This document shows positions 2,944-64,000 of a stretch of DNA of 64,000 bases, one piece after another (position 1 is the first letter of the stretch; each line of letters starts with the position of its first letter). The notes under the pieces were generated by a model that saw only the letters and a program-made list of their open reading frames with translations, ran no database searches and was not told where the DNA came from. The translations under genes were made by a program, and so were the position numbers. Source of the DNA: a virus; the UHGV virus genome UHGV-0248979. The stretch is one strand, 5' to 3'.

Positions 2944-3978
2944 TTAGACAGCTATGGGAGCTTTAATTGTGTCGTGTGATTGATACCCAACCAATTCGAA
3001 GTCTTCGTATTTGTAATCGAAGATAGAATCAGGTTTACGTTTGATAACCAGTTTAGGTAGCGGGTAAGGTTCGCGAGTAAGTTGAAGTTTTGCCTGCTCC
3101 AGATGGTTAGAGTAAAGATGAACGTCTACACCACTATAAACCAACTCGTCTGGAACCATATTCAACTGCTGTGCAATCATGTGGGTTAGCAACGCGTACG
3201 AAGCGACGTTAAACGGCGCGCCAAGTAGGTAATCGTTGCTCCGCATCATGTAAAAACATGAAAGCTTACGGCGTGGAATACCTTCACGATCTAAAGTTTC
3301 ATGAAGACGTTCTTCATCATCAATATCTTCGTGATTAATAAGCGGTGCGCTCGCAAATTTTTCCGGCTCGTTTATTTCGTACCAATCCAGTCGCTCAAGC
3401 AGTGTCATTTCTGTAGTGTAGAATTGGAAATAGTTGTGGCATGGGTTAAGTGCCATATCGTCCAGGTCACCTACATTCCAGGCACTAACAATAATACGAC
3501 GGGAGTCAGGGTCTTCACGAAGTTGTTGGATAACTTTACTGATCTGGTCATGTGCTTTCTCATAGACCAAATACGTCGTACCATCTTCCTTCATATTCCC
3601 AATATACTTGTAACCCCGCTGCATTAGTTGTTGTGTACGTCTTACGTCATGACACTCCACAACTTTACAGTCACGCCATTCGCGCCACTGTTTACCATAA
3701 ACTGGTCCTAAGTTCCCCTCCTCGTCACTCCATTCGTTCCAAATTTTTACCCCGTTCTCTTGCAGGTACTTCACGTTAGTGTCACCATTTAAGAACCACA
3801 GCAGTTCATGAATGATACTTTTCAGGTGAACCTTTTTCGTAGTAACTAATGGGAAACCTTCTTTTAGGTCGAAACGTAGTTGGCGACCAAATACAGAAAG
3901 TGTCCCTACGCCTGTACGGTCTTTCTTGACAACACCGTTATCTAGAATGTCTTGCATTAACGCTAAATACTGTTTCAT
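2944..3978 (-). CDS. thyA: thymidylate synthase family protein (344 aa) with large insertions
   Basis: Hallmark motifs [45 protein letters not shown] (catalytic Cys), [10 protein letters not shown]; SD GGAGA upstream. Confidence 0.85.
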
Positions 3979-4292
3979 TTGTTATTCTCCATACGTTTCG
4001 TTAAAATGTCTAAATTACGTTGCGCTTGCTCAGGACTAAAAATAATGTTTTCCTGGCTATACGTTACATGGAAATGTTTTTTGTTAACAATCTCAACCTT
4101 AAGGCCACGAACTTCGAATTGCCGTTTAGCCTCTTCAACCTTTTTTGGTGAGATTCTAAGAAGACCTGGAAATAGTTCGTCTGCAGGAACGTAGTATTTG
4201 ATTTCCTTAGTTTCGGGAATTAATTCGATCCTATCTAAACTGACGCTTATGATTTCGTCAATCTTTTTCTTTATATTGTCGTTCACAGTCAT
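3975..4292 (-). CDS. hypothetical protein (105 aa)
   Basis: ORF; start/stop overlap with neighbours. Confidence 0.5.
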
Positions 4293-33597: not shown

Positions 33598-33651
33598 ACC
33601 CACCTCCATAAAGACGGAGTGTGGTGTAAAAAGAAAAAAAAAACAGAGAAA

Positions 33652-56300: not shown

Positions 56301-58558
56301 ATCAAAAATCGGCTTATTTCATCGAAGCCGAATATGATAAAAATACGACCTATGGTTATCCTGGATACGCTGGTTTTGGACCAACATCCCGCCGTGTTGA
56401 AAAAACAGCGAACGAATACGGCATATTGACAAATATACCGCTGGTTGTTACGCCAGAAATACCGAAAGGTCTACTAGATGGGGCTTACTTTATCGGTGCT
56501 GAAAGTAAACCATGTAAAGTTGTTTACGGTACCACTACGGTGGCTAGTGATCGGTTGTCTATCGATGCGGCAGAATGGGCGAAGTTGACTAATATTGTTC
56601 AGTCCAGCCAGTTCTCTGGGGCATCTAACGGCAACGCCTATGAGCGGATTAGCGTAGCTAAGACCAAAAAGAACAACTACAGTTTGTCCTTTTGGGTGCT
56701 TGGTCAAACGATGTCTGGTGGTCCGCTTTGTATCGCGATAGTGAGTCTTATCTATAAAGACACTGACGGGGTAAATAAGTTTGCTTTTTACTTCTTTCAG
56801 GTAAAACCGACTATAACCAACGGGGTCATAAGGTTCGTTAGTTCGGAAGCGAGAATGATGACGTTCAGGGAAAAAGTGGCCAGTAACGCCATTAATCTCT
56901 CACCCACAGCTTTTAATGGTGAACTTAAACAACGCTCCGGTCAAGTTTTCCTTTATTCGCAAGACGGACAAAAGTTCAGATTCTCAATACATAACCTGGT
57001 TGGCGGGAATCTTGTAGGATCAGAGATTTCTTTTGCTTTTGGGATAAACTTGACTAAAAAAGGCGAATGGTTTACCGGCGAAATTCATCGGGCGTGGGGC
57101 TATACGTATACGCTGAATAATACATCTGAAGTCTATATACCCGATCTCTCGGGCATCGCGCTATTGACTTGTAACTCGGAAGATTTAAACGAGTTGTATC
57201 TCGGTGGCGAACAGTATAGAATCTCTGATTTGTTTAACAAAAAATATACTGTTATCGATAAGATTATTATTGGTGGCGTACAAACACAGAGCGGTTGGAA
57301 TTTCTATCTGACGGAGGAAACCGAGTTAAGTTTTGGAAATAAAAGATATACCGTTCCAAGATGGTCCGTTGATTTAAGCGATGAATTCCCGACCAATCAC
57401 GCTAACCAGACGTTCTACGTTTATGCTGAAGTGGTCGGTTCTACTGCCCAATACCGCATCGGTTTAGAGCAGTTAGCTGATACCTCGTCGAGACTGTTTG
57501 TTGGGACAGTAACCACTGATTCGAACCGTATTACGGATATCAGTATCGATAAAGTAAAACGGTTAGGTCGCGTAAAAGAGCTGGAAAATCATGCCTCGAT
57601 TGTTGATCAGCATGATGTGGCGCAGGCGTTCGACAGGAAAACTGGCCCACTATTAACGCTGGTTAATAAACCCGTTAAAGTCGTTACAGCATCTGCGAGC
57701 AAGGGTGCTGGGTATGTCGATGGTCAGAAATGGAATACGTTGTCCGGGATTACAACACGTTCCAGGTTGCCGGTACAGGAAACCTATTCAGGTTATAAAA
57801 GTATCAGCAGGGTGGCGTATGAGAACTGCGCTGACCAGTTCTGGCAGAAAGCGGTTGCTGCGAACGTTGCAGCGGCTACTGCTTCTGAGAACAAACAAGC
57901 AGCAACCGCGAACATGAAGTGGTTGGGCGCGTATACGAAACCGACTACTGGCGAGTATGCATATCTGGCATTGAGTCTGCGTGTTAAAGTACCTGGCGAT
58001 CCTGGTACTACTAATCGTCGACTGAAAATCAGGCTTGCGGCCCCGACAGGTATAACTCAAGTTCGTTACGGGCTAAATCAGTCTGGCGGTACGATGACTG
58101 AACAGACAGTAACGCTAACTGCTAACAGTTACCTGGAAAAAGAACACGCGGGATTTAAGCCAGCCGCCGAAGTCCGCCTTCATGCTACGTTTGTCATTCC
58201 AAAAAATGAATACGATAGTTACCGGACCAAATTTGGTGCTGTTCAGCTGATTGACGTTGAGACGAACACTGTCATTAAACAGACAGATATCGACACACCG
58301 TTTATCGTGTACACCGCCACAGAGCAAGCGGCACAATCTGGTTTGGTGTATAAAGCGGTTAAGAGTCAGTTTCGTCAACTCCCGGCTCAACCTGTCGTCA
58401 TTGTAACTGATGGACAGACAGGGACTACACCACCGGTGAAAACCGCGTTTTCTGACGGGACATTAACGGTCTACGTGGCAACCACGTACGATGCGGTTAA
58501 CCCAGCACAAACTCGCGATATCGATAAGCTCCAGTTCAATCTTATGTTTACATCTTAA
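53372..58558 (+). CDS. tail fiber-like / receptor-binding protein 3 (1728 aa)
   Basis: SD AGGAG; shared N-terminal motif GPFYRIGL...GLDYYL. Confidence 0.55.
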   Translation: MPREDAAQFNGTLSTTTYPNRFNVVIPPEGPFYRIGLKLTVADDTAPNGRRTLIEGLDYYLGYYFKELAEAEQDQIYGGFMLLTATEIEYEILGVARQYRVPQSEIGKFLVRTDLKDPRNVDWSELMAYAPVIQPIDPPANLEEAILRDEVVKALNDIRKKIVQRSTELDAAFTEVTNLIYENGKKIFDEELYQHHLNPNAHQYTTNDVGALPVLGRAVDATKAFGLTIDQLATLMGSAGIEQSDVEQLMGEALGTVYGRWGTTNGNELTFKTPGGHIISIRGDKWLITSPQPLVIKADQDNNESGLAVEFSAGLNTLWVHSGSEQDVLAPVYNSVYLVTPEMVNMYLTSVTLLEANAYFKPSDTVKPYGTAKQSNPLTLNANIPTATESVYGVFSITNIATSVALGTAISQKAVTELKNRLDLYVDDDYTVNGKGFVKTGDNMVLTLTKADFGIDKMNNTAPIAKPVTKALANVLKNKSLKVHTHTTADLDNVPIGSATVDGILQLWDAIDTTNDKAVTSRQGWLFAKEIKKVSDKLNTLLPAWTTAGSKYTNNSILPILSMGNYEGYGKNMDALQMVIGVQQGKLYALISSKSALPGTEGIYYAVAGLKNDKSLGEIYKTTFRYKPKGLETNYPGVELKEITVTGTEAFIAKGSDDNYYLVKLNGSMDYTKHTDVRLVTFSEFVSETTWEFVPNMFMDRVVIADNGVYVLRTMLMADLKNNSLVDYIKDTPQPMFRVGLLRLNKTDRFEQVDLSSTRKIGKCADLVEPGAFDVDNPNTKRLAYFTAEGKALWTVNLQLTRGVSRWITPVVKDGHLLTVGVSGVCLGFSSTKGTTFGPWNGAYRLDLLTGEVGLETTNIFPIKIDTTGCYLKDGTKIELKWKWATRSSGYMADNRICVGDMVYSCCCSTEKQLAPSLHYQKLPEGVSYLDYVKLSVGYEGQSTFENRINPVVGSVWKPSMTFPLFFPGTNKVWLKHQKSAYFIEAEYDKNTTYGYPGYAGFGPTSRRVEKTANEYGILTNIPLVVTPEIPKGLLDGAYFIGAESKPCKVVYGTTTVASDRLSIDAAEWAKLTNIVQSSQFSGASNGNAYERISVAKTKKNNYSLSFWVLGQTMSGGPLCIAIVSLIYKDTDGVNKFAFYFFQVKPTITNGVIRFVSSEARMMTFREKVASNAINLSPTAFNGELKQRSGQVFLYSQDGQKFRFSIHNLVGGNLVGSEISFAFGINLTKKGEWFTGEIHRAWGYTYTLNNTSEVYIPDLSGIALLTCNSEDLNELYLGGEQYRISDLFNKKYTVIDKIIIGGVQTQSGWNFYLTEETELSFGNKRYTVPRWSVDLSDEFPTNHANQTFYVYAEVVGSTAQYRIGLEQLADTSSRLFVGTVTTDSNRITDISIDKVKRLGRVKELENHASIVDQHDVAQAFDRKTGPLLTLVNKPVKVVTASASKGAGYVDGQKWNTLSGITTRSRLPVQETYSGYKSISRVAYENCADQFWQKAVAANVAAATASENKQAATANMKWLGAYTKPTTGEYAYLALSLRVKVPGDPGTTNRRLKIRLAAPTGITQVRYGLNQSGGTMTEQTVTLTANSYLEKEHAGFKPAAEVRLHATFVIPKNEYDSYRTKFGAVQLIDVETNTVIKQTDIDTPFIVYTATEQAAQSGLVYKAVKSQFRQLPAQPVVIVTDGQTGTTPPVKTAFSDGTLTVYVATTYDAVNPAQTRDIDKLQFNLMFTS

Positions 58559-58598
58559 CGCCACGAGACAAGGACGTCTCGGATTAAGGAGAGTGGCC

Positions 58599-59798
58599 AT
58601 GGCCTCCATTGTATACCAATACCCTTTAGATTTAACGGGAACCCTAACCTCTAACGCCGTGGAGCGTCAGATTACGTTAGGTACAGGCAAAGTTAACCGT
58701 GCGTTTGCTTTCCCTGATGGTCCGTTTTATGCCGATACGTTCCGCTTGCGGGTTGCCAATCGACCTGGAGCGACATATGAGCGTGGAACGGACTATGAAC
58801 TGATTTTTGCACACCCGGCTTATGAGAAATTGACGAAGAACCGGGAAGTGGTAATGGCGGTTGTTGTAACGAACACCGCGATTCCGACCGATATCACGGT
58901 ATCGGCGCAAGTAGTTGGTGGTCCGCAGTCTGCAAATGTGACCGCGATTGAGCAAGCGATTGCCGAGTTGAAACTCGATAATCGAACTGTTGGCTTTAAA
59001 GACTTGCGAAATGTGCCGGACACGTTTCCTTCAGCACCAACGTATAAAGACGTCGGTGATATTTACGGCTTCGAATATATCATTACAGTGCTCGCTGGCA
59101 TTAAAGATGCGATAACTGCGGGTGATGCTGTACAGCTTGAGAACATCAAAGCGATTCTCGAAAGCCTGAAAAACGATTTCCTGGACGCGCTGAACGCGCA
59201 CATTAACTCCACTGGTAACGTCCACCATCTGGATATTCATCAGGTTAACGGGTTAACAGAAACGGAAATCCGCGCTTTAATTCGCAGTGTTCAGACAGCC
59301 ATTGATGCAACGATTGCCGATATCAATGCATTGAAGAAAGCGGACGTAGCGTTAGGAAAACGTATTGATGCCGTTGTCAAATCTCTGGAAGCGTGGAACG
59401 ACCAACTTAACGTCGTTGCACAAAACTACCAGAAAATGGCACTGGCAATGGCGAACCTAAACTCGTTAGTGTTACAGTTACAGAAAAATATCAACGATCT
59501 GAGCACCAAACTCAACCAAGCGATTCAACGTATTGCTGCGTTAGAGCAACGGGGTAATGAGACTGATCAGAAAATTGATAAACTGCAACAAAACCTGGAT
59601 GCGCTTAAACAACAGGTTGCGAATAACACGAACGCTATTAGTCAGGCGAATCAGAACCTACAAAACCACATTGCGGCGGATAATCCACACACAGGTTACC
59701 TGCACAAGAAATACGGTGGCGTGGTTCAGGCTTCAGTACACGTTAACGCTAACTTGACGTCCCGTGATGACGTTCAGGCAGAAGCAGGTACGAAATAA
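58599..59798 (+). CDS. short fiber-like protein with shared N-terminal domain and long coiled coil (399 aa)
   Basis: Start moved to ATG with SD AAGGAGAG; N-terminal GPFYADTFRL...GTDYEL; heptad-rich central region. Confidence 0.55.
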   Translation: MASIVYQYPLDLTGTLTSNAVERQITLGTGKVNRAFAFPDGPFYADTFRLRVANRPGATYERGTDYELIFAHPAYEKLTKNREVVMAVVVTNTAIPTDITVSAQVVGGPQSANVTAIEQAIAELKLDNRTVGFKDLRNVPDTFPSAPTYKDVGDIYGFEYIITVLAGIKDAITAGDAVQLENIKAILESLKNDFLDALNAHINSTGNVHHLDIHQVNGLTETEIRALIRSVQTAIDATIADINALKKADVALGKRIDAVVKSLEAWNDQLNVVAQNYQKMALAMANLNSLVLQLQKNINDLSTKLNQAIQRIAALEQRGNETDQKIDKLQQNLDALKQQVANNTNAISQANQNLQNHIAADNPHTGYLHKKYGGVVQASVHVNANLTSRDDVQAEAGTK

Positions 59799-59839: not shown

Positions 59840-59865
59840 ATTCTTTTTTATTTTAAGGATACGTG

Positions 59866-60258
59866 ATGGCGATCAGTGTTAAAAATGTGCGTGACCGAAT
59901 CACCAACGTAGAGAACCAAATGGCAACTGGCCCACGTGTTGATCCGCAAGTTGCGTCGAAAGCACATAACGCTGCTGATTCATTTTCAGGTTGGACACCC
60001 GGTCGATTAGATTGTGGAGGTAGCTGTAGCTGGACATGCTCAAACGGTTGTACGCATGGTTGTACGAGTTGTTCAGGTACATGTACATCGGTGTGCGTAG
60101 GAAGCTGTTCCTCTGCGTGTGGTAATCAATGCAGTGGTTGTAGCGGAACGTGTTCGGGTGGTTGTTCAGGATGTAGTGGGACTTGTAGTGGGGGATGTGC
60201 TGGACGTTGTTCCTCGGGGTGTAGTGGTTCTTGTGCAGGTGGTTGTTCTAACCCATAA
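59866..60258 (+). CDS. cysteine-rich leader+core small protein 1 (130 aa), candidate radical SAM substrate
   Basis: N-terminal ~55 aa non-Cys leader, then CGGSCSWTCS and ~26 Cys in CxxC/CxxxC repeats rich in Ser/Gly/Thr; SD AAGGA. Confidence 0.6.
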   Translation: MAISVKNVRDRITNVENQMATGPRVDPQVASKAHNAADSFSGWTPGRLDCGGSCSWTCSNGCTHGCTSCSGTCTSVCVGSCSSACGNQCSGCSGTCSGGCSGCSGTCSGGCAGRCSSGCSGSCAGGCSNP

Positions 60259-60277
60259 AAAATAAGGATCAATTCGA

Positions 60278-61192
60278 ATGGAAGAACTTACTAGACCGAC
60301 GGTATCCGATAAGCTTTACAGTAATCCGAGAACGTTAAACGTGATTACAACATCCAAATGTAATCTGGACTGTAGCTTCTGCGGCGGAGCCTATTACATG
60401 CATAGAGAGGATACAACCGCAGAAGTACAAAAGGAAAGTATTATCGAGGCGCTGGAAAATAACCCGACTATCACAAATATCCAATGGTCAGGGGGCGAAC
60501 CATTACTTGCCACGCGTAAAATTGATACCCTTATAGAAGAGATAAGGGAGAAGTATCCTCGTTGCGAACATTACCTGTATACCAATGGTTTAAAAATGCG
60601 TAAATCGCATCTACCGTTGTTAAAGGGTTTTGATAGTATCTTTTTTAGCATGGATGGATTCAAAGAATCAGAGCGTCCGTTCATGCGGATTATCGAAGAA
60701 AAACAATACGAGGTTTTGGAGACAATTTACGAATTGAAAAATATTCGTACTTGGGCGGTTTTGACACGCGAGCGTATTGGGGATAAACGTTGGTACGAAG
60801 ATATAATTGCGTTACATAACCACATTTACCATTATGGTTTTTGTGAGATGTCGCTGGTTTTGGACAAAAACATGCCAAAACCGTTATCTCCCGATCACGT
60901 TATGAACTTTATTTACGGGTATTTTAGAATTCAGGAGAATATAGAAAGACTGAATTCGTCCAATCGAAGTGAATGTGCGTTTACGCTAAATGCGTTATTT
61001 GATGAACCCTGTAACACATGTAGTCGTTGTTTTCGCATTGAGTCTGACGGTGCCCAGAACCAAGTAAAGAACGTTGAAATCGTAACGCAACACGGCTGTA
61101 GTGACTTGGCCAGAAAGGTTGGATTAGATGCTTACGACTATATACGTCGTGTGGTAGGGGCTAAGAATAGAGTCTCAGAAAAACTACGATAA
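60278..61192 (+). CDS. radical SAM enzyme, paralog 1 (304 aa)
   Basis: CNLDCSFC (CX3CX2C) Fe-S motif at residues 28-35, GGEPLL SAM-binding motif, extra C-terminal Cys cluster CNTCSRC. Confidence 0.8.
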   Translation: MEELTRPTVSDKLYSNPRTLNVITTSKCNLDCSFCGGAYYMHREDTTAEVQKESIIEALENNPTITNIQWSGGEPLLATRKIDTLIEEIREKYPRCEHYLYTNGLKMRKSHLPLLKGFDSIFFSMDGFKESERPFMRIIEEKQYEVLETIYELKNIRTWAVLTRERIGDKRWYEDIIALHNHIYHYGFCEMSLVLDKNMPKPLSPDHVMNFIYGYFRIQENIERLNSSNRSECAFTLNALFDEPCNTCSRCFRIESDGAQNQVKNVEIVTQHGCSDLARKVGLDAYDYIRRVVGAKNRVSEKLR

Positions 61193-61250
61193 TTTTACAG
61201 AAAGTGAATTATAATGTGTCCTAGGGGGCACTAAACCAGTAGGTATTAAA

Positions 61251-61649
61251 ATGGCGATTGGTTTATCTTCTTTAAAGGCCCGGCTAGATAACATAGACTC
61301 TACTGCATTAAAAAATACAGGTGCGGTGCAGAACTATATTCGTGGTAAAGCCACTAATAATAGCGATCTGTTTGGAGGACAGCCGAGAAATCACTATGAC
61401 TGTGGGGGTAGCTGTAGCTGGACGTGCTCAAGTTGTTCGGGCGGCTGTACCGGCAACGCCTCCGGCGGCTGCGGTTCTTCCTGTTCAGCGAACTGTGTTT
61501 CAGGATGTAGTACAGGTTGCACAGGTTGTAGCAGTACCTGCTCAGGAGGGTGCACAGGTAATTGCTCGGGCGGTTGTTCAAGTAGTTGCACCGGAACATG
61601 TTCAGGTTCATGTCGAGGCGGATGTCAGCAATCGTGTACTGGAAGATAA
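61251..61649 (+). CDS. cysteine-rich leader+core small protein 2 (132 aa), candidate radical SAM substrate
   Basis: Leader SLKARLDNIDST..., then HYDCGGSCSWTCSSCSGGC and long Cys-rich core. Confidence 0.6.
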   Translation: MAIGLSSLKARLDNIDSTALKNTGAVQNYIRGKATNNSDLFGGQPRNHYDCGGSCSWTCSSCSGGCTGNASGGCGSSCSANCVSGCSTGCTGCSSTCSGGCTGNCSGGCSSSCTGTCSGSCRGGCQQSCTGR

Positions 61650-61652
61650 GAA

Positions 61653-61862
61653 ATGATAAGTCTTAAAAACATACGCGACAGATTAGTAACGGCGGAGGGA
61701 TATATCACCACCGCTAATGCAAACAACTATATTGCAAACCAAGGAACGGTTTCCTCAACCAACAATCTCGCAGGATTACCTTTAAGTCATTATAATTGTA
61801 ATGGCGGATGTAGTTGGTCGTGCAGCGGTAGCTGTAGTAAGGGGGCGGGGGGGGGTAAGTAA
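61653..61862 (+). CDS. cysteine-rich leader+short-core protein 3 (69 aa as read); likely continues into next frame via G-tract slippage
   Basis: Leader ISLKNIRDRL..., HYNCNGGCSWSCSGSCS, terminates right after G5CG9 tract. Confidence 0.5.
   Translation: MISLKNIRDRLVTAEGYITTANANNYIANQGTVSSTNNLAGLPLSHYNCNGGCSWSCSGSCSKGAGGGK
61841..61855 (+). repeat. G5-C-G9 homopolymeric tract (slippage/frameshift-prone)
   Basis: GGGGGCGGGGGGGGG seen directly; removing one G joins the peptide-3 frame to the downstream 61863-62319 frame. Confidence 0.9.
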
Positions 61863-62319
61863 GCCCTCTAGCGGTGGTTCTACGCCAACCCCTTCAAGAC
61901 CAACCTACGACAACAAAGCCGTTGTTTATGTTGAGTCTAAGCTACACGCTAAAGATACTGTTCGTATCAATTTCTCTACTGGGGCTGTCTTTATTCAATG
62001 CGTAACGTTAACCGGTAGAGAGAAACCGATAAGGGTCTTTAAATCGTTACTGTCTGGAAAGTCCTACGCCTACCCTCAAGTTGCAATGGGTAATGGTATC
62101 ACTGTTAATTTTACAGACGCGGCTAGTTTTAAGATAGACTCTATCGGTAATGCATCTTCTGCTTCTATCTCATTAGAAGTATTAAGTAATTCCGGCGGAA
62201 GCATGGCGATTAAGCAGCAACCGAGTAAATCAAACGGCTTTACTGCAGAATTTGAAGTTACCGGCAGGCAATGGCGTGGCGGGTTCTATACCTTGAACGT
62301 CAGATTGACCGTAAAATAA
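61863..62319 (+). other. out-of-frame continuation ORF encoding a ~150-aa Ser/Pro/Thr-linker plus globular domain, reachable from peptide 3 by 1-nt frameshift
   Basis: +1 frame is open from 61801 through the G tract to the stop at 62317-62319. Confidence 0.5.
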
Positions 62320-62331
62320 TTGGAGTAATCA

Positions 62332-63219
62332 ATGAAAAACGATTTGCATTTAGCCTATAAAACAATTTTCAACCACCCACTTCATATTTCTTCCCCCGAT
62401 TCAATACGCGCTCATTTGGAAGATAAAGTTCGTTTGTTAACCCAGTTACCTGGCGAATGGCCCAAAGTGCGTGGTCGTTTTTTTACCGATCGCAATAACT
62501 ATTCAGTAGAAAACACTTTTAAAATACGCGATCTGACAGCAGAAAGCGTAGTGGTGTTTACCGGTGATTCAGATTTACGCGGTAAATTGGTTGACGGTAA
62601 ATATTTCTTTAGTGACGGTATTCTGAATAATTCTGTAGATTTGGAATTGTTCTTTACGCCATTTAAAGAGTTGAATGCGAAGCCTGTAGCACGACGTTGG
62701 TGGTCTCCAGACTATCTTGGTTCATTCCCGTACTTTTATGCCCTGGTTCCTGTAGAAACAAAAAACTATGTTGATACTGAACCGTATATTGAAATAGAAG
62801 GTTACGAGGAACTTGGCATCAACTGTTTAGCAGATCTGATGGCGTACAGTTACAAATTTATGTGGGATCGTGAACGTTCAGTATGGGTTGCCCTTACAGA
62901 TGAACATGAAATCACAAAACGTATTCGTAAACCATGGATGCAGCATTTAATTCAAACACGTATTGGTGAACATCCGTCATCGGAAGCAGATTTAGCGAAA
63001 CTTGTTAGTTTCTTAATGACGAAAGTCACGTTAACTGATGAAGAAAAAGCGGCAGTGTCGGCGGTATTGGAACGTAACGTAACGTTAGCGGATCTAGAAC
63101 GTTTAAACGTGCGTTATAAAGACCTTAATCGTATTATTGAGGCTTACAATTCACCGTTTGTATTAAAACCTGGAGTTAACGCTTACGACGATCCTTTGTT
63201 ATCCATTGGCTATATTTAA
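62332..63219 (+). CDS. hypothetical protein (295 aa) inside the radical SAM cassette
   Basis: ORF with SD-like GGAG upstream; no motif recognised. Confidence 0.55.
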   Translation: MKNDLHLAYKTIFNHPLHISSPDSIRAHLEDKVRLLTQLPGEWPKVRGRFFTDRNNYSVENTFKIRDLTAESVVVFTGDSDLRGKLVDGKYFFSDGILNNSVDLELFFTPFKELNAKPVARRWWSPDYLGSFPYFYALVPVETKNYVDTEPYIEIEGYEELGINCLADLMAYSYKFMWDRERSVWVALTDEHEITKRIRKPWMQHLIQTRIGEHPSSEADLAKLVSFLMTKVTLTDEEKAAVSAVLERNVTLADLERLNVRYKDLNRIIEAYNSPFVLKPGVNAYDDPLLSIGYI

Positions 63220-63241
63220 AAAATAGATGGACTCACCTGCA

Positions 63242-64000
63242 ATGACAACCGACGTAGAGCCAAGGTTATCGAATCGTTTATACAATAAACCCACCGTATT
63301 GTCCGTAGTTGCTACATCCAAATGTAATCTGGACTGTAGCTTCTGCGGCGGAGCCTATTACATGCATCGTGAAGATTCTCCGCGAGAGTTTCAACGTGAA
63401 CGAATTTTGAAAGCGTTGGCGTCTAACCCAACCATTACTGAAATTCAGTGGACTGGCGGTGAACCGCTACTGGCAACTCGAAAGATTGAGGCGTTTGTCG
63501 ACGAATTAAAAACGATCCGTCCTGAACTCAAACACCAGATGTTCACGAACGGTTTAAAAATGCGTAAATCGCATCTACCGTTGTTAAAACAATTCGATGG
63601 TATATATGTTAGCATCGATGGGTTTAATCTTTCTGAACGGCCTTTTAAGCGCTTTATTGATGATAATTGTCATGAAGCGTTAGAAGTAATTTACAGCTTG
63701 AATAATGTTAACACCTGGGCTGTTGTTACGAGGGAGAATTTATCCAATAAAAGATGGCATGAAGATATCATTCAATTACATACTGCTATCTATCATTACG
63801 GTTTTCGTTCCATGTCCTTATTACTAGATAAAAACATGCCAAAACCGTTATCTCCCGATCACGTTATGAACTTTATTTACGGGTATTTTAGAATTCAGGA
63901 GAATATAGAAAGATTAAACGTTCTAAATTCTAGAGACTGCGGTTTTATTGTAAACAGATTCTTCGATCATGCTTGTAATGTCTGTAGCGAAAGTCTCAGG
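63242..64000 (+). CDS. radical SAM enzyme, paralog 2 (3' partial, 253 aa in window)
   Basis: Manual translation (not in ORF track because no stop in window): SKCNLDCSFCGG, GGEPLL, C-terminal CNVCSE; blocks of nucleotide identity with paralog 1. Confidence 0.75.
   Translation, partial: MTTDVEPRLSNRLYNKPTVLSVVATSKCNLDCSFCGGAYYMHREDSPREFQRERILKALASNPTITEIQWTGGEPLLATRKIEAFVDELKTIRPELKHQMFTNGLKMRKSHLPLLKQFDGIYVSIDGFNLSERPFKRFIDDNCHEALEVIYSLNNVNTWAVVTRENLSNKRWHEDIIQLHTAIYHYGFRSMSLLLDKNMPKPLSPDHVMNFIYGYFRIQENIERLNVLNSRDCGFIVNRFFDHACNVCSESLR

What the first reader, a model, noticed from the sequence alone, without database searches (positions are those of the whole stretch)
61653..62319. G5-C-G9 homopolymer at the junction of peptide 3 and a downstream 150-aa domain: frameshift or phase-variation switch
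Peptide 3 terminates (KGAGGGK-stop) immediately after the tract GGGGGCGGGGGGGGG (61841-61855). The +1 frame is open across the tract and continues to 62319, encoding a Ser/Pro/Thr linker (KPSSGGSTPTPSRPTYDNK) and a ~130-aa domain. Loss of a single G (G9 to G8), or ribosomal slippage, yields a ~222-aa fusion of leader, short Cys motif, linker and C-terminal domain. A 9-G run is a classic slipped-strand site, so the locus may toggle between a short peptide and a domain-bearing fusion, or the break may be a homopolymer sequencing error.
Basis: seen in the sequence. Interest (0 to 1): 0.7.

Follow-up and report, generated by a model that had tools for sequence, protein, structure and literature searches.

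The report
Poly-G switch on phage peptide gene
A run of nine Gs in a giant Salmonella-type phage sits exactly where a small cysteine-rich peptide gene meets an out-of-frame 150-residue domain. Related genomes carry 9, 10 or 11 Gs there, so the phage can make either the short peptide or a peptide-plus-domain fusion.

Summary
G5-C-G9 lies at 61841-61855, peptide 3 stops at 61860-62, and the +1 frame stays open to 62319.

The window belongs to an unnamed SPN3US-like jumbo phage. Peptide 3 is the third of three CXXX-repeat peptides that sit beside radical-SAM maturases, just downstream of the baseplate/tail-fibre genes.

- **Named relatives lack the feature.** SPN3US, Machina, Asesino and the others have a 68-aa peptide 3 ending GAGNR*, with no G tract and no domain.
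- **The tract length varies.** In about 225-kb metagenome and isolate contigs of the window's own lineage it is G9 (37 contigs), G10 (38) or, rarely, G11. G11 gives a called 222-aa in-frame fusion. Four scaffolds that are otherwise almost identical over 3.3 kb differ mainly at the tract.
- **The domain is a real coding sequence.** dN/dS in the domain frame is about 0.09. This holds even for the 78 codons that have no in-frame start codon. The +1 frame upstream of the tract shows no coding constraint.
- **The fusion exists elsewhere.** A second, unrelated domain allele occupies the same junction in another lineage, where one sub-lineage has a fixed in-frame 226-aa fusion.
- **Both OFF frames end cleanly.** The TAAGTAAG motif stops both at once, so the canonical short peptide is still made.

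The most likely mechanism is slipped-strand variation in the DNA. Transcriptional or ribosomal slippage is not excluded.

The parts
61653..61862 (+). Peptide 3, short form in the window's G9 state: 69 aa with a conserved 48-aa N-terminal region, four CXXX repeats (CNGGCSWSCSGSCS) and the tail KGAGGGK*.
   Evidence: ORF. It matches phrog_6085 at 7.9e-25. It is 85-90% identical to the 68-aa peptide 3 of SPN3US, Machina and Asesino, which ends GAGNR*.
61841..61855 (+). The G5-C-G9 tract. The long run (61847-61855) is the slip site.
   Evidence: Sequence. The run is G9, G10 or G11 in contigs that are otherwise near-identical. Exact-sequence look-ups find G9 on 37 contigs, G10 on 38 and G11 on at least 2.
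61856..61863 (+). TAAGTAAG. It supplies a stop codon in both non-fusion frames: TAA at 61860-62 for the G9 class and TAA at 61856-58 for the G10 class. In the fusion frame the last tract G plus this motif reads GTA AGT AAG (V-S-K).
   Evidence: Read directly from the sequence and checked on in-silico tract variants. The motif is conserved in L003, L013, L020 and L021.
61855..61917 (+). Ser/Pro/Thr/Gly linker in the domain frame (VSKPSSGGSTPTPSRPTYDNK).
   Evidence: Translation. dN/dS is 0.07-0.15 against L003, L009 and L020.
61918..62319 (+). C-terminal domain of about 133 aa, predicted to be all-beta, including the stop codon at 62317-62319. There is no in-frame start codon before the ATG at about 62086-62088.
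   Evidence: dN/dS is 0.089 against L003 (47 synonymous, 19 non-synonymous), and the other two frames score above 1. Codons 22-78, which have no start codon available, give 0.06-0.11 against L003 and L009 and 0.24 against L020. The AlphaFold2 model shows beta strands only, but its pLDDT is 48.9. There is no Pfam, PHROG, NCBIfam or PDB match.
59863..60258 (+). Peptide 1, a CXXX-repeat peptide (context).
   Evidence: phrog_6085 at 3.1e-40. TIGR04114 at 20.1 bits against a cut-off of 20.
60278..61192 (+). Radical-SAM enzyme of 304 aa. SPN3US has no gene at this position; it is an extra paralogue (context).
   Evidence: PF04055 at 8e-14. SPN3US gene order.
61251..61649 (+). Peptide 2, a CXXX-repeat peptide (context).
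   Evidence: phrog_6085 at 3.2e-39. TIGR04114 at 22.3 bits.
62332..63219 (+). Conserved 295-aa protein of unknown function (phrog_8030). In all named relatives it follows peptide 3 directly.
   Evidence: phrog_8030 at 1.6e-138. Gene order.
63227..64000 (+). Radical-SAM enzyme, cut off by the end of the window. It is 307 aa in relatives and is followed there by a 440-aa rSAM/SPASM-type maturase.
   Evidence: PF04055 at 6.7e-13. Gene tables for L005. The SPN3US 442-aa homologue hits TIGR04115 at 3e-36 and PapB at 1.1e-32.

Best explanation
The G tract is a genuine hypermutable slip site. It decides whether peptide 3, a CXXX-repeat peptide that is a putative radical-SAM substrate, is made alone or with a C-terminal linker and a beta-rich domain attached. 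That domain is swappable between lineages.

Tract lengths of 3n (G9, G12) and 3n+1 (G10, G13) end translation immediately in the TAAGTAAG double stop. They give the canonical 68-70-aa peptide. Lengths of 3n+2 (G8, G11) read through as ...GAGG(G)-VSKPSS... into the domain.

The most likely route is slipped-strand mispairing during phage DNA replication. Each phage population would then be a mixture in which a minority of genomes, and through phenotypic mixing some virions or infected cells, carry the fusion.

What is shown:
- The tract length is polymorphic on identical haplotypes.
- The fused ORF exists in relatives.
- The domain frame is under purifying selection, and in the G10 state it has no start codon of its own.

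What is inferred:
- The switching happens mainly at the DNA level.
- The domain is a surface or binding module whose stochastic display changes adsorption or host range. This rests on its position next to the tail-fibre genes, its Ser/Pro/Thr linker, its beta-rich prediction, and the replacement of the whole domain by a different allele in a sister lineage.
For: 1. Tract length differs among contigs that encode the identical 295-aa neighbour. It is G9 in the window, L004, L005, L008, L009 and L014. It is G10 in L006, L010, L011 and L012. It is G11 in L013, where a 222-aa fused gene is called. L005-L008 differ from one another at the tract and at one other position over about 3.3 kb.

2. Exact-sequence counts for the window's leader type are G9 on 37 contigs, G10 on 38, and the G11 fusion on at least 2. 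G6-8 and G12-14 were not found. In lineage B every leader haplotype occurs with two to four tract classes.

3. dN/dS in the domain frame is 0.089, 0.095 and 0.08 against L003, L009 and L013, while the alternative frames score above 1. Selection extends to the linker and to codons 22-78, which have no in-frame start codon.

4. Upstream of the tract, substitutions are synonymous in the peptide frame (3 synonymous, 0 non-synonymous) and non-synonymous in the +1 frame (0 synonymous, 3 non-synonymous). L020 lacks the ATG that corresponds to 61801.

5. In the G10 state the domain frame opens only inside the tract.

6. Seven named relatives from three genera have neither a tract nor a domain. L021 has an interrupted tract (G6CGG) together with a truncated, frameshifted domain. 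Tract purity therefore tracks domain integrity.

7. A second domain allele sits at the same junction. It occurs with an uninterrupted G10 (L029, L030). It also occurs as a fixed in-frame 226-aa fusion with an interrupted tract (P0081/L031, 10 contigs).

8. An isolate assembly breaks exactly at the tract.

9. Another long homopolymer, the terminator T-run at 33634-33643, also varies (T8, T9, T10) among relatives. This is consistent with generally unrepaired replication slippage.

10. There is a precedent in Campylobacter phages, which use hypermutable polyG tracts (Sorensen 2021, cited in PMC10877375).
Against: - No reads were available, so heterogeneity within a population and reversibility are not shown. 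Consensus differences could partly reflect poly-G sequencing or assembly noise.
- The in-frame class is rare at consensus level: at least 4 against about 146 out-of-frame contigs in the window-type and B lineages. In lineage B it is rarer than its neighbouring length classes. Either ON is usually selected against, or expression does not depend on ON genomes at all.
- Fused variants are spread over many distinct exact sequences, so the count is a lower bound.
- The domain's function is unknown. The structure model is of low confidence and there is no informative homologue.
- In the sister lineage L026, the domain has an ATG in its linker and might be made as a separate protein.
Confidence: 0.6

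Rival explanations
1. Recoding happens during gene expression. The phage or host RNA polymerase stutters on the G9-11 run, or ribosomes shift on it. In the G10 state this would be a -1 shift at G GGG UAA, a slippery run followed by a 'shifty stop'. In the G9 state it would be a +1 shift. An upstream Shine-Dalgarno-like UAAGGGGG could help. Every infection would then yield a fixed minority of fusion protein, and the DNA length polymorphism would be incidental.
For: - Both out-of-frame classes are equally common, and the in-frame class is rare in consensus genomes. Yet the domain is under strong purifying selection, which is easiest to explain if OFF genomes still express it.
- Within a G run, tRNA-Gly can re-pair in any frame. 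In the G10 state a stop codon sits in the A site, and UAAGGGGG at 61838-61845 can pair with the anti-SD (read from the sequence).
- Phage structural proteins often gain C-terminal Ig-like domains by +1 or -1 frameshifting (T3, A2, A118, A500, PSA). A G7 run in HSV thymidine kinase supports low-level compensatory frameshifting (PMC5009743).
- The 120 nt downstream fold better than shuffled sequence (z = -2.98).
Against: - A ribosomal shift in one direction requires one fixed frame relationship. Here the G9 class would need +1 and the G10 class -1, and both are frequent.
- The predicted hairpin starts about 40 nt after the tract, too far away for a classical -1 stimulator, and its conservation is confounded by coding.
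- Well-documented transcriptional slippage in bacteria is on A or T runs (own knowledge).
- Nothing here measures RNA or protein.
Confidence: 0.25
2. The domain is a decaying remnant. An ancestral in-frame fusion was broken by a slip in the tract, and in the window's phage the domain is no longer made. The locus would be a pseudogene on its way to the domain-less state seen in SPN3US.
For: - Named relatives lack the domain.
- L021 shows exactly such decay: an interrupted tract, deletion of about 75 codons, and a C-terminal frameshift.
- P0035 is another frameshifted fragment.
- In the sister allele the out-of-frame lineage L026 carries 7 non-synonymous and 1 synonymous unique changes. The in-frame L031 carries 2 non-synonymous and 4 synonymous (small numbers).
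- ON genomes are rare.
Against: - Within the window-type clade the domain frame shows dN/dS of about 0.09 at dS up to 0.63, and it has no stop codon or indel in any of 13 loci read. A broken gene would not stay intact over that divergence.
- The uninterrupted tract is itself maintained across lineages, although Gly could be encoded by other codons. GGG makes up only 20% of Gly codons here.
Confidence: 0.07
3. Sequencing or assembly artefact. The true gene is in frame (G8 or G11) and homopolymer miscalling produces the apparent break.
For: Poly-G runs are error-prone on Illumina instruments. One isolate assembly breaks at the tract, and L007 shows an odd GGGGAGGGGG.
Against: - More than 140 independent contigs from isolates and metagenomes, built with different assemblers, give out-of-frame consensus lengths.
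- In lineage B the in-frame length is the least frequent class, although it lies between frequent ones. That is the opposite of scatter around a true in-frame length.
- The double stop TAAGTAAG, which gives a clean 68-70-aa peptide like that of all relatives, argues for a designed arrangement.
Confidence: 0.04
4. The domain is a separate protein, started at the ATG at 61801 inside peptide 3 (172 aa), as gene callers annotate it.
For: The ORF 61801-62319 begins with ATG. Gene callers report 172/173-aa products.
Against: - There is no Shine-Dalgarno sequence upstream (agtcattataattgta).
- The ATG is a by-product of the conserved Cys-Asn-Gly codons. It is also present in SPN3US, which has no domain, and it is absent in L020.
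- The +1 frame between 61801 and the tract evolves without coding constraint.
- In G10 genomes the ATG is not in the domain frame at all.
Confidence: 0.03

Closest known systems
Hypermutable polyG tracts in Campylobacter phages (Fletchervirus/Firehammervirus; Sorensen et al. 2021, Cell Rep 35:109214, cited in PMC10877375)
   Same: A homopolymeric G run inside a phage ORF changes length and switches the reading frame. This creates subpopulations that differ in a host-interaction protein.
   Different: Those phages infect a host known for polyG phase variation, and to my knowledge they carry several tracts. Here there is a single tract in an enterobacterial SPN3US-like jumbo phage. It lies exactly at a domain junction, both OFF frames stop at once and still yield a conserved functional-length peptide, and the protein concerned is a putative radical-SAM substrate.
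C-terminal Ig-like domain extensions of phage structural proteins made by programmed +1 or -1 ribosomal frameshifting (T3 capsid, Lactobacillus A2, Listeria A118, A500, PSA; reviewed in PMC5009743)
   Same: Short and long products share an N-terminus. The long form adds a beta-rich domain encoded in another frame at the 3' end of the gene. The domain appears to have landed there by recombination, and whether it is in or out of frame differs between relatives.
   Different: Those cases use defined ribosomal shift sites with a fixed frame relationship. Here the junction is a 9-11-nt homopolymer whose DNA length itself varies, and all three frame relationships are seen among close relatives. An Ig-like fold is not established.
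CXXX-repeat peptide and radical-SAM maturase systems (TIGR04114/TIGR04115) and PapB-type ranthipeptide maturases
   Same: Peptides with Cys at every fourth residue lie next to rSAM enzymes. Peptides 1 and 2 reach the TIGR04114 cut-off. The relatives' 440-aa enzyme is most similar to TIGR04115 and PapB.
   Different: This system is encoded by a virulent-type jumbo phage beside its tail-fibre genes. The enzymes score far below the equivalog cut-offs. Peptide 3 has only four repeats and can carry a folded domain. No chemistry has been shown.
Bacterial contingency loci (polyG/polyC phase variation in Neisseria, Haemophilus, Campylobacter)
   Same: A simple-sequence tract in the coding sequence, length polymorphism between close isolates, and frame-dependent ON and OFF states.
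   Different: This is a viral genome. The OFF state is not a null allele but the ancestral short product. Switching rates and phenotype are unknown.
Herpes simplex thymidine kinase G7 run with 'saviour' indels and compensatory frameshifting (PMC5009743)
   Same: A G run in a viral gene where indels occur and low-level frameshifting can restore some full-length product.
   Different: That is a drug-selected loss-of-function situation, not a conserved junction between two modules.

Membership tests
Simple-sequence (homopolymer) phase-variable locus | Homopolymer tract of about 8 nt or more within the coding sequence | tested here: met
   G9 at 61847-61855. G9-G11 in relatives.
Simple-sequence (homopolymer) phase-variable locus | Tract length differs between otherwise near-identical genomes (recurrent, homoplastic change) | tested here: met
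   L005-L008 differ from one another at the tract and at one other position over about 3.3 kb. Each leader haplotype occurs with several lengths.
Simple-sequence (homopolymer) phase-variable locus | Length change switches between alternative translation products | tested here: met
   In-silico variants. Real called genes of 68, 69 and 222 aa.
Simple-sequence (homopolymer) phase-variable locus | High-frequency, reversible switching within a clonal population, with a phenotype | not testable with these tools
   No read-level or experimental data were available.
Programmed ribosomal frameshift site | Slippery sequence that allows tRNA re-pairing in the new frame | tested here: met
   GGG codons re-pair in any frame within the run (read from the sequence).
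Programmed ribosomal frameshift site | Fixed frame relationship between the upstream and downstream ORFs, conserved among relatives | tested here: not met
   The +1, -1 and in-frame relationships all occur among close relatives.
Programmed ribosomal frameshift site | Stimulatory element at the proper spacing (SD-like sequence, A-site stop or rare codon, downstream structure) | tested here: inconclusive
   An SD-like UAAGGGGG lies upstream, and a stop codon is adjacent in the G10 state. The hairpin has z = -2.98 but starts about 40 nt downstream.
CXXX-repeat radical-SAM target peptides (TIGR04114) | Match to the repeat model above its cut-off | tested here: not met
   Peptide 3 has no NCBIfam hit. 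Peptides 1 and 2 reach 20.1 and 22.3 bits against a cut-off of 20. Peptide 3 does have four CXXX units by eye and belongs to the same PHROG, 6085.
CXXX-repeat radical-SAM target peptides (TIGR04114) | Adjacent cognate rSAM/SPASM maturase (TIGR04115) | tested here: inconclusive
   The SPN3US 442-aa homologue scores 125.6 bits against a cut-off of 350. The window's 304-aa and 307-aa rSAMs give only generic rSAM hits.
Ig-like / beta-sandwich decoration domain | Recognisable Ig-like fold or family match | tested here: inconclusive
   AlphaFold2 predicts only beta strands, but mean pLDDT is 48.9. There is no Pfam or PDB match. The only match is a 35-aa motif shared with secreted repeat proteins P0036 and P0037.

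The most novel reading that the evidence does not exclude
SPN3US-like jumbo phages may use radical-SAM-modified CXXX peptides as small virion or tail-fibre-associated components. In one Salmonella-associated clade, peptide 3 would then have become the anchor for an exchangeable receptor-binding domain whose display is stochastic and set by a poly-G tract. That would be a RiPP-like precursor serving as a structural adaptor for a phase-variable host-range module in a nucleus-forming jumbo phage. In such a phage, slippage errors could escape host mismatch repair.
Probability: 0.2. Interest if true: 0.85.

Novelty: new variant of a known kind. Interest (0 to 1): 0.62.

Why it matters
- **Reach of polyG switching.** PolyG-driven diversity in phage genes has, as far as I know, been described only for Campylobacter phages. 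Finding it in an enterobacterial jumbo phage would extend it to a very different phage-host system. The phage lineage appears in well over a hundred Salmonella, E. coli and Shigella isolate assemblies and in gut-type metagenomes.
- **An unstudied locus.** The tract marks a conserved locus of three Cys-rich peptides and two to three radical-SAM enzymes beside the tail-fibre genes. No paper in the searched library addresses it.
- **A ready-made experiment.** The natural ON, OFF and locked variants can be used to ask what these peptides and the appended domain do.
- **Annotation.** Gene callers currently report a spurious 172-aa ORF or 77/96-aa fragments here. RefSeq SPN3US misses or mis-frames the peptides.

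Tried and rejected
- **Nucleotide searches found nothing useful.**
  - Megablast of the locus against INPHARED phages, PLSDB plasmids and complete E. coli genomes gave no match.
  - A 13-kb conserved stretch gave only 57-60-nt matches.
  - This lineage is therefore absent from those collections at the nucleotide level.
- **Junction pattern scans were nearly empty.** IMG/VR and the GTDB genomes gave 0 hits. JGI metagenomes gave one hit, L020, with G9.
- **The domain matched no known family.** Pfam, PHROG and NCBIfam gave no hit, and PDB sequence searches gave nothing credible.
- **The exhaustive HMMER search was barely informative.** It found only the domain's own family plus a weak 35-aa motif match to secreted repeat proteins that have no Pfam match.
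- **The AlphaFold2 model was too poor to use.** Mean pLDDT was 48.9, so I ran no fold search.
- **The independent start at ATG 61801 was considered and rejected**.
- **Cluster members could not be inspected as DNA.** L021 later supplied the P0018-type junction.
- **Literature searches found no paper on the locus.** Searches for SPN3US with radical SAM, and for jumbo phage with cysteine-rich peptides, returned nothing on it.
Full report
**1. Observation**

The sequence reads ...AGC TGT AGT AAG GGG GCG GGG GGG GGT AAG TAA GCC.... G5 occupies 61841-61845, C is at 61846 and G9 occupies 61847-61855. Peptide 3 (61653-61862, 69 aa) ends KGAGGGK*. The +1-frame ORF 61801-62319 is open across the tract.

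Rebuilding the tract in silico gives fusions of 221 aa (G8) and 222 aa (G11), and short peptides of 69 aa (G9) and 68 aa (G10).

A G9 run is expected 0.16 times per window in shuffles. It is the only G or C run longer than 6 in the 64 kb. It is also the only homopolymer of 8 or more that lies in coding sequence; the A/T runs of 8-10 are all intergenic. GGG makes up only 20% of Gly codons in neighbouring genes.

**2. Context**

The window comes from an SPN3US-like jumbo phage.
- The 1440-, 1394- and 1728-aa ORFs upstream match, by size and PHROG, SPN3US gp170, gp169 and gp168. Those are its 'baseplate/tail fibre candidates' (PMC5694885).
- Next comes a coiled-coil virion protein.
- Then come three Cys-rich peptides of phrog_6085, a conserved 295-aa protein (phrog_8030) and radical-SAM enzymes.

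Peptides 1 and 2 reach the cut-off of TIGR04114, the model for CXXX-repeat rSAM targets. The 442-aa rSAM of SPN3US is most similar to the CXXX-repeat maturase TIGR04115 and to PapB ranthipeptide maturases, although well below their cut-offs. Peptide 3 has four CXXX units: C-NGG-C-SWS-C-SGS-C.

At the nucleotide level the lineage is absent from the INPHARED, PLSDB and complete E. coli genome collections.

**3. Relatives without the feature**

I read peptide 3 in seven named relatives:
- Seoulvirus: SPN3US, Lh1B, SPAsTU and pEa_SNUABM_29.
- Machinavirus: Huxley.
- Erskinevirus: Asesino and phiEaH2.

In all seven, peptide 3 is 68-69 aa and ends in an invariant GAGNR*. The gene has no G tract and is followed 13-30 nt later by the phrog_8030 gene. 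The short peptide is therefore the ancestral, conserved product. The window's lineage has replaced ...GAG-NR* with ...GAG-Gn, followed by about 460 nt that encode a linker and a domain.

**4. Relatives with the feature**

The domain has homologues only in three protein clusters and in nothing annotated.

Looking up the window's phrog_8030 protein returned ten metagenome scaffolds of about 225 kb. The tract in these and the other loci read is as follows:
- G9 in the window, L004, L005, L008, L009, L014 and L020.
- G10 in L006, L010, L011 and L012.
- G11 in L013, where the gene caller reports one fused 222-aa gene.
- GGGGAGGGGG in L007.

L005-L008 differ from one another at the tract and at one other position over about 3.3 kb. 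Tract length does not follow the flanking haplotypes.

Exact-sequence look-ups gave these counts:
- G9 peptide: 37 contigs.
- G10 peptide: 38 contigs.
- G11 fusions: at least 2.
- G6-G8 and G12-G14: none.

In a second lineage (L003 type, junction GGA GCA Gn) each leader haplotype occurs with two to four tract classes. Leader RDRMGQ gives 19, 10 and 2 contigs; leader RDRIGQ gives 6, 25, 2 and 2. Fused 222-aa proteins also exist there (P0016, P0017).

A Shigella flexneri isolate assembly breaks seven nucleotides before the tract.

**5. Is the domain translated, and from where?**

dN/dS in the domain frame is 0.089 against L003 (47 synonymous, 19 non-synonymous, dS 0.63). It is 0.095 against L009 and 0.08 against L013. 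The other two frames score above 1.

The constraint covers the linker (0.07-0.15). It also covers codons 22-78, which lie before the first in-frame ATG, GTG or TTG: 0.06-0.11 against L003 and L009, and 0.24 against L020.

Upstream of the tract the pattern reverses. Changes there are synonymous in the peptide frame and non-synonymous in the +1 frame.

The ATG at 61801 is not a credible start:
- It has no Shine-Dalgarno sequence.
- It is a by-product of the Cys-Asn-Gly codons, and SPN3US has it too.
- It is missing in L020.
- In G10 genomes it is not in the domain frame, which then opens only inside the tract.

The domain can therefore only be made as a continuation of peptide 3.

**6. A second domain allele at the same junction**

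Searching with peptide 3 and then with the new domain revealed a different module of about 150 aa at the same place. It reads ...RPIRTTRTYTKF...FPSEQNGWWGVI...KIGLF. Three states were found:
- L029 and L030 have an uninterrupted G10, and the domain is out of frame.
- L026 and L027 (at least 24 contigs) have an interrupted G-rich junction, the domain in the +1 frame, and an ATG in the linker.
- L031 (P0081; 10 contigs, eight of them in the 0.2-1 Mb length class) is a fixed in-frame 226-aa fusion with the non-slippery junction GGAGGGGGAGGGG.

So the leader-CXXX-linker-domain fusion is a real gene in relatives, and the junction behaves as a docking point for exchangeable domains.

Changes unique to the out-of-frame L026 are 7 non-synonymous to 1 synonymous. 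Those unique to the in-frame L031 are 2 to 4. This is suggestive only.

In contrast, L021 combines an interrupted tract (G6CGG) with a deleted and frameshifted domain remnant. Tract purity and domain integrity go together.

**7. Anatomy of the switch**

After the run comes T-AAG-TAA-G.
- In the 3n class the peptide ends ...GGT AAG TAA.
- In the 3n+1 class it ends ...GGG TAA.
- In the 3n+2 class the same bases read GTA AGT AAG (V-S-K) and continue into the linker.

Both OFF states therefore give a peptide of nearly the ancestral length rather than a long out-of-frame tail. The D-type G10 allele lacks the second stop and produces a 38-aa junk tail.

**8. Mechanism**

DNA-level length polymorphism is directly observed, and it is the simplest route to the fusion. 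This matches the hypermutable polyG tracts described for Campylobacter phages (reference in PMC10877375).

A terminator T-run elsewhere in the genome also varies (T8, T9, T10) among relatives. That suggests replication slippage generally goes uncorrected in this phage. It is my inference, not tested here, that replication inside a phage nucleus would shield the DNA from host mismatch repair.

The in-frame class is rare in consensus genomes: at least 4 contigs against about 146. The count is a lower bound, because fused proteins split into many distinct exact sequences. Either ON is usually disadvantageous, or OFF genomes still produce some fusion by transcriptional or ribosomal slippage.

A ribosomal shift in a single direction is disfavoured, because the G9 and G10 classes need opposite shifts and are equally common. 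Bidirectional RNA polymerase stuttering would fit the data, as would a combination of mechanisms.

C-terminal beta-domain extensions added by frameshifting are well known on phage structural proteins, as is low-level frameshifting on a G7 run in HSV thymidine kinase (PMC5009743).

I put about 0.6 on DNA slippage as the main route, 0.25 on expression-level recoding, and the remainder on a remnant, an artefact or an independent start.

**9. Function**

Function is unknown. These points fit a surface-exposed binding module:
- the position beside the tail-fibre candidate genes;
- the Ser/Pro/Thr linker;
- the all-beta prediction, which is of low confidence;
- a motif shared with secreted repeat proteins;
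- replacement of the whole domain by a different allele in a sister lineage.

No direct evidence supports this.

**10. Verdict**

The feature is a new variant of known kinds, namely homopolymer phase variation and frameshift-added C-terminal domains in phages. It sits in an unstudied peptide and radical-SAM locus of jumbo phages.

Noticed in passing
L001 (SPN3US NC_027402.1) 3178-4207; window 59863-61862: RefSeq SPN3US annotates none of the three Cys-rich peptides correctly. Peptides 1 and 3 are missing, and gp100 (L001 3654-3989) is the wrong frame over peptide 2. Several Erwinia phage records annotate opposite-strand ORFs over these genes.
   Followed up: partly
window 60278-61192 and 63227-64000: The window has an extra radical-SAM paralogue between peptides 1 and 2 that SPN3US lacks. 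It shares a near-identical stretch of about 88 nt with the downstream rSAM (about 60868-60955 against 63833-63920, ...aaaaacatgccaaaaccgttatctcccgatcacgttatgaac...). This suggests recent duplication or gene conversion.
   Followed up: no
window 33634-33643 (minus strand): A T10 run forms the tail of an intrinsic terminator hairpin upstream of an 834-aa SMC_N-like gene. The run is T8 or T9 in near-identical scaffolds (L023-L025). Long homopolymers therefore vary generally in this phage lineage.
   Followed up: partly
whole window; clusters: This phage lineage is absent from the phage, plasmid and complete E. coli collections. It nevertheless appears as contigs of about 220-230 kb in many NCBI isolate assemblies (Salmonella serovars, E. 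coli, Shigella flexneri) and in gut-type metagenomes. That hints at carriage with the isolates, as a carrier state or pseudolysogeny.
   Followed up: no
L026-L031 (junction after peptide 3): A second, essentially unrelated domain allele of about 150 aa occupies the same junction in a sister lineage. It occurs in locked-ON, OFF and G10 versions. In L026 a Val-to-Met change creates an ATG in the linker, which might allow the domain to be expressed on its own.
   Followed up: partly
L021 700-1030: This is a decayed version of the locus. The tract is interrupted (G6CGG), about 75 codons of the domain are deleted between short AAGTC repeats, and the domain's C-terminal end carries a frameshift.
   Followed up: yes
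L022 (GCA_013957665.1 contig end) / P0021: A Shigella flexneri isolate assembly ends one contig 7 nt before the G tract. Another contig of the same assembly begins just after it.
   Followed up: yes
window 63213-63223: The intergenic poly-A run between the phrog_8030 stop codon and the rSAM start codon is one base shorter in half of the related scaffolds.
   Followed up: no
P0036, P0037: These are secreted proteins of about 550 aa from unknown bacteria, each with four repeats. The repeats share the motif G-x-phi-x-phi-x-QQP-xxx-NG-[FWY]-TA with the phage domain. They have no Pfam family and may represent an undescribed beta-sandwich repeat family.
   Followed up: partly
window 58491-59798: The listed 435-aa ORF probably starts at the internal Met (MASIVYQYPLDL...), as in SPN3US and L003 (399-401 aa), and not at 58491, which lies inside the end of the 1728-aa gene.
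   Followed up: no
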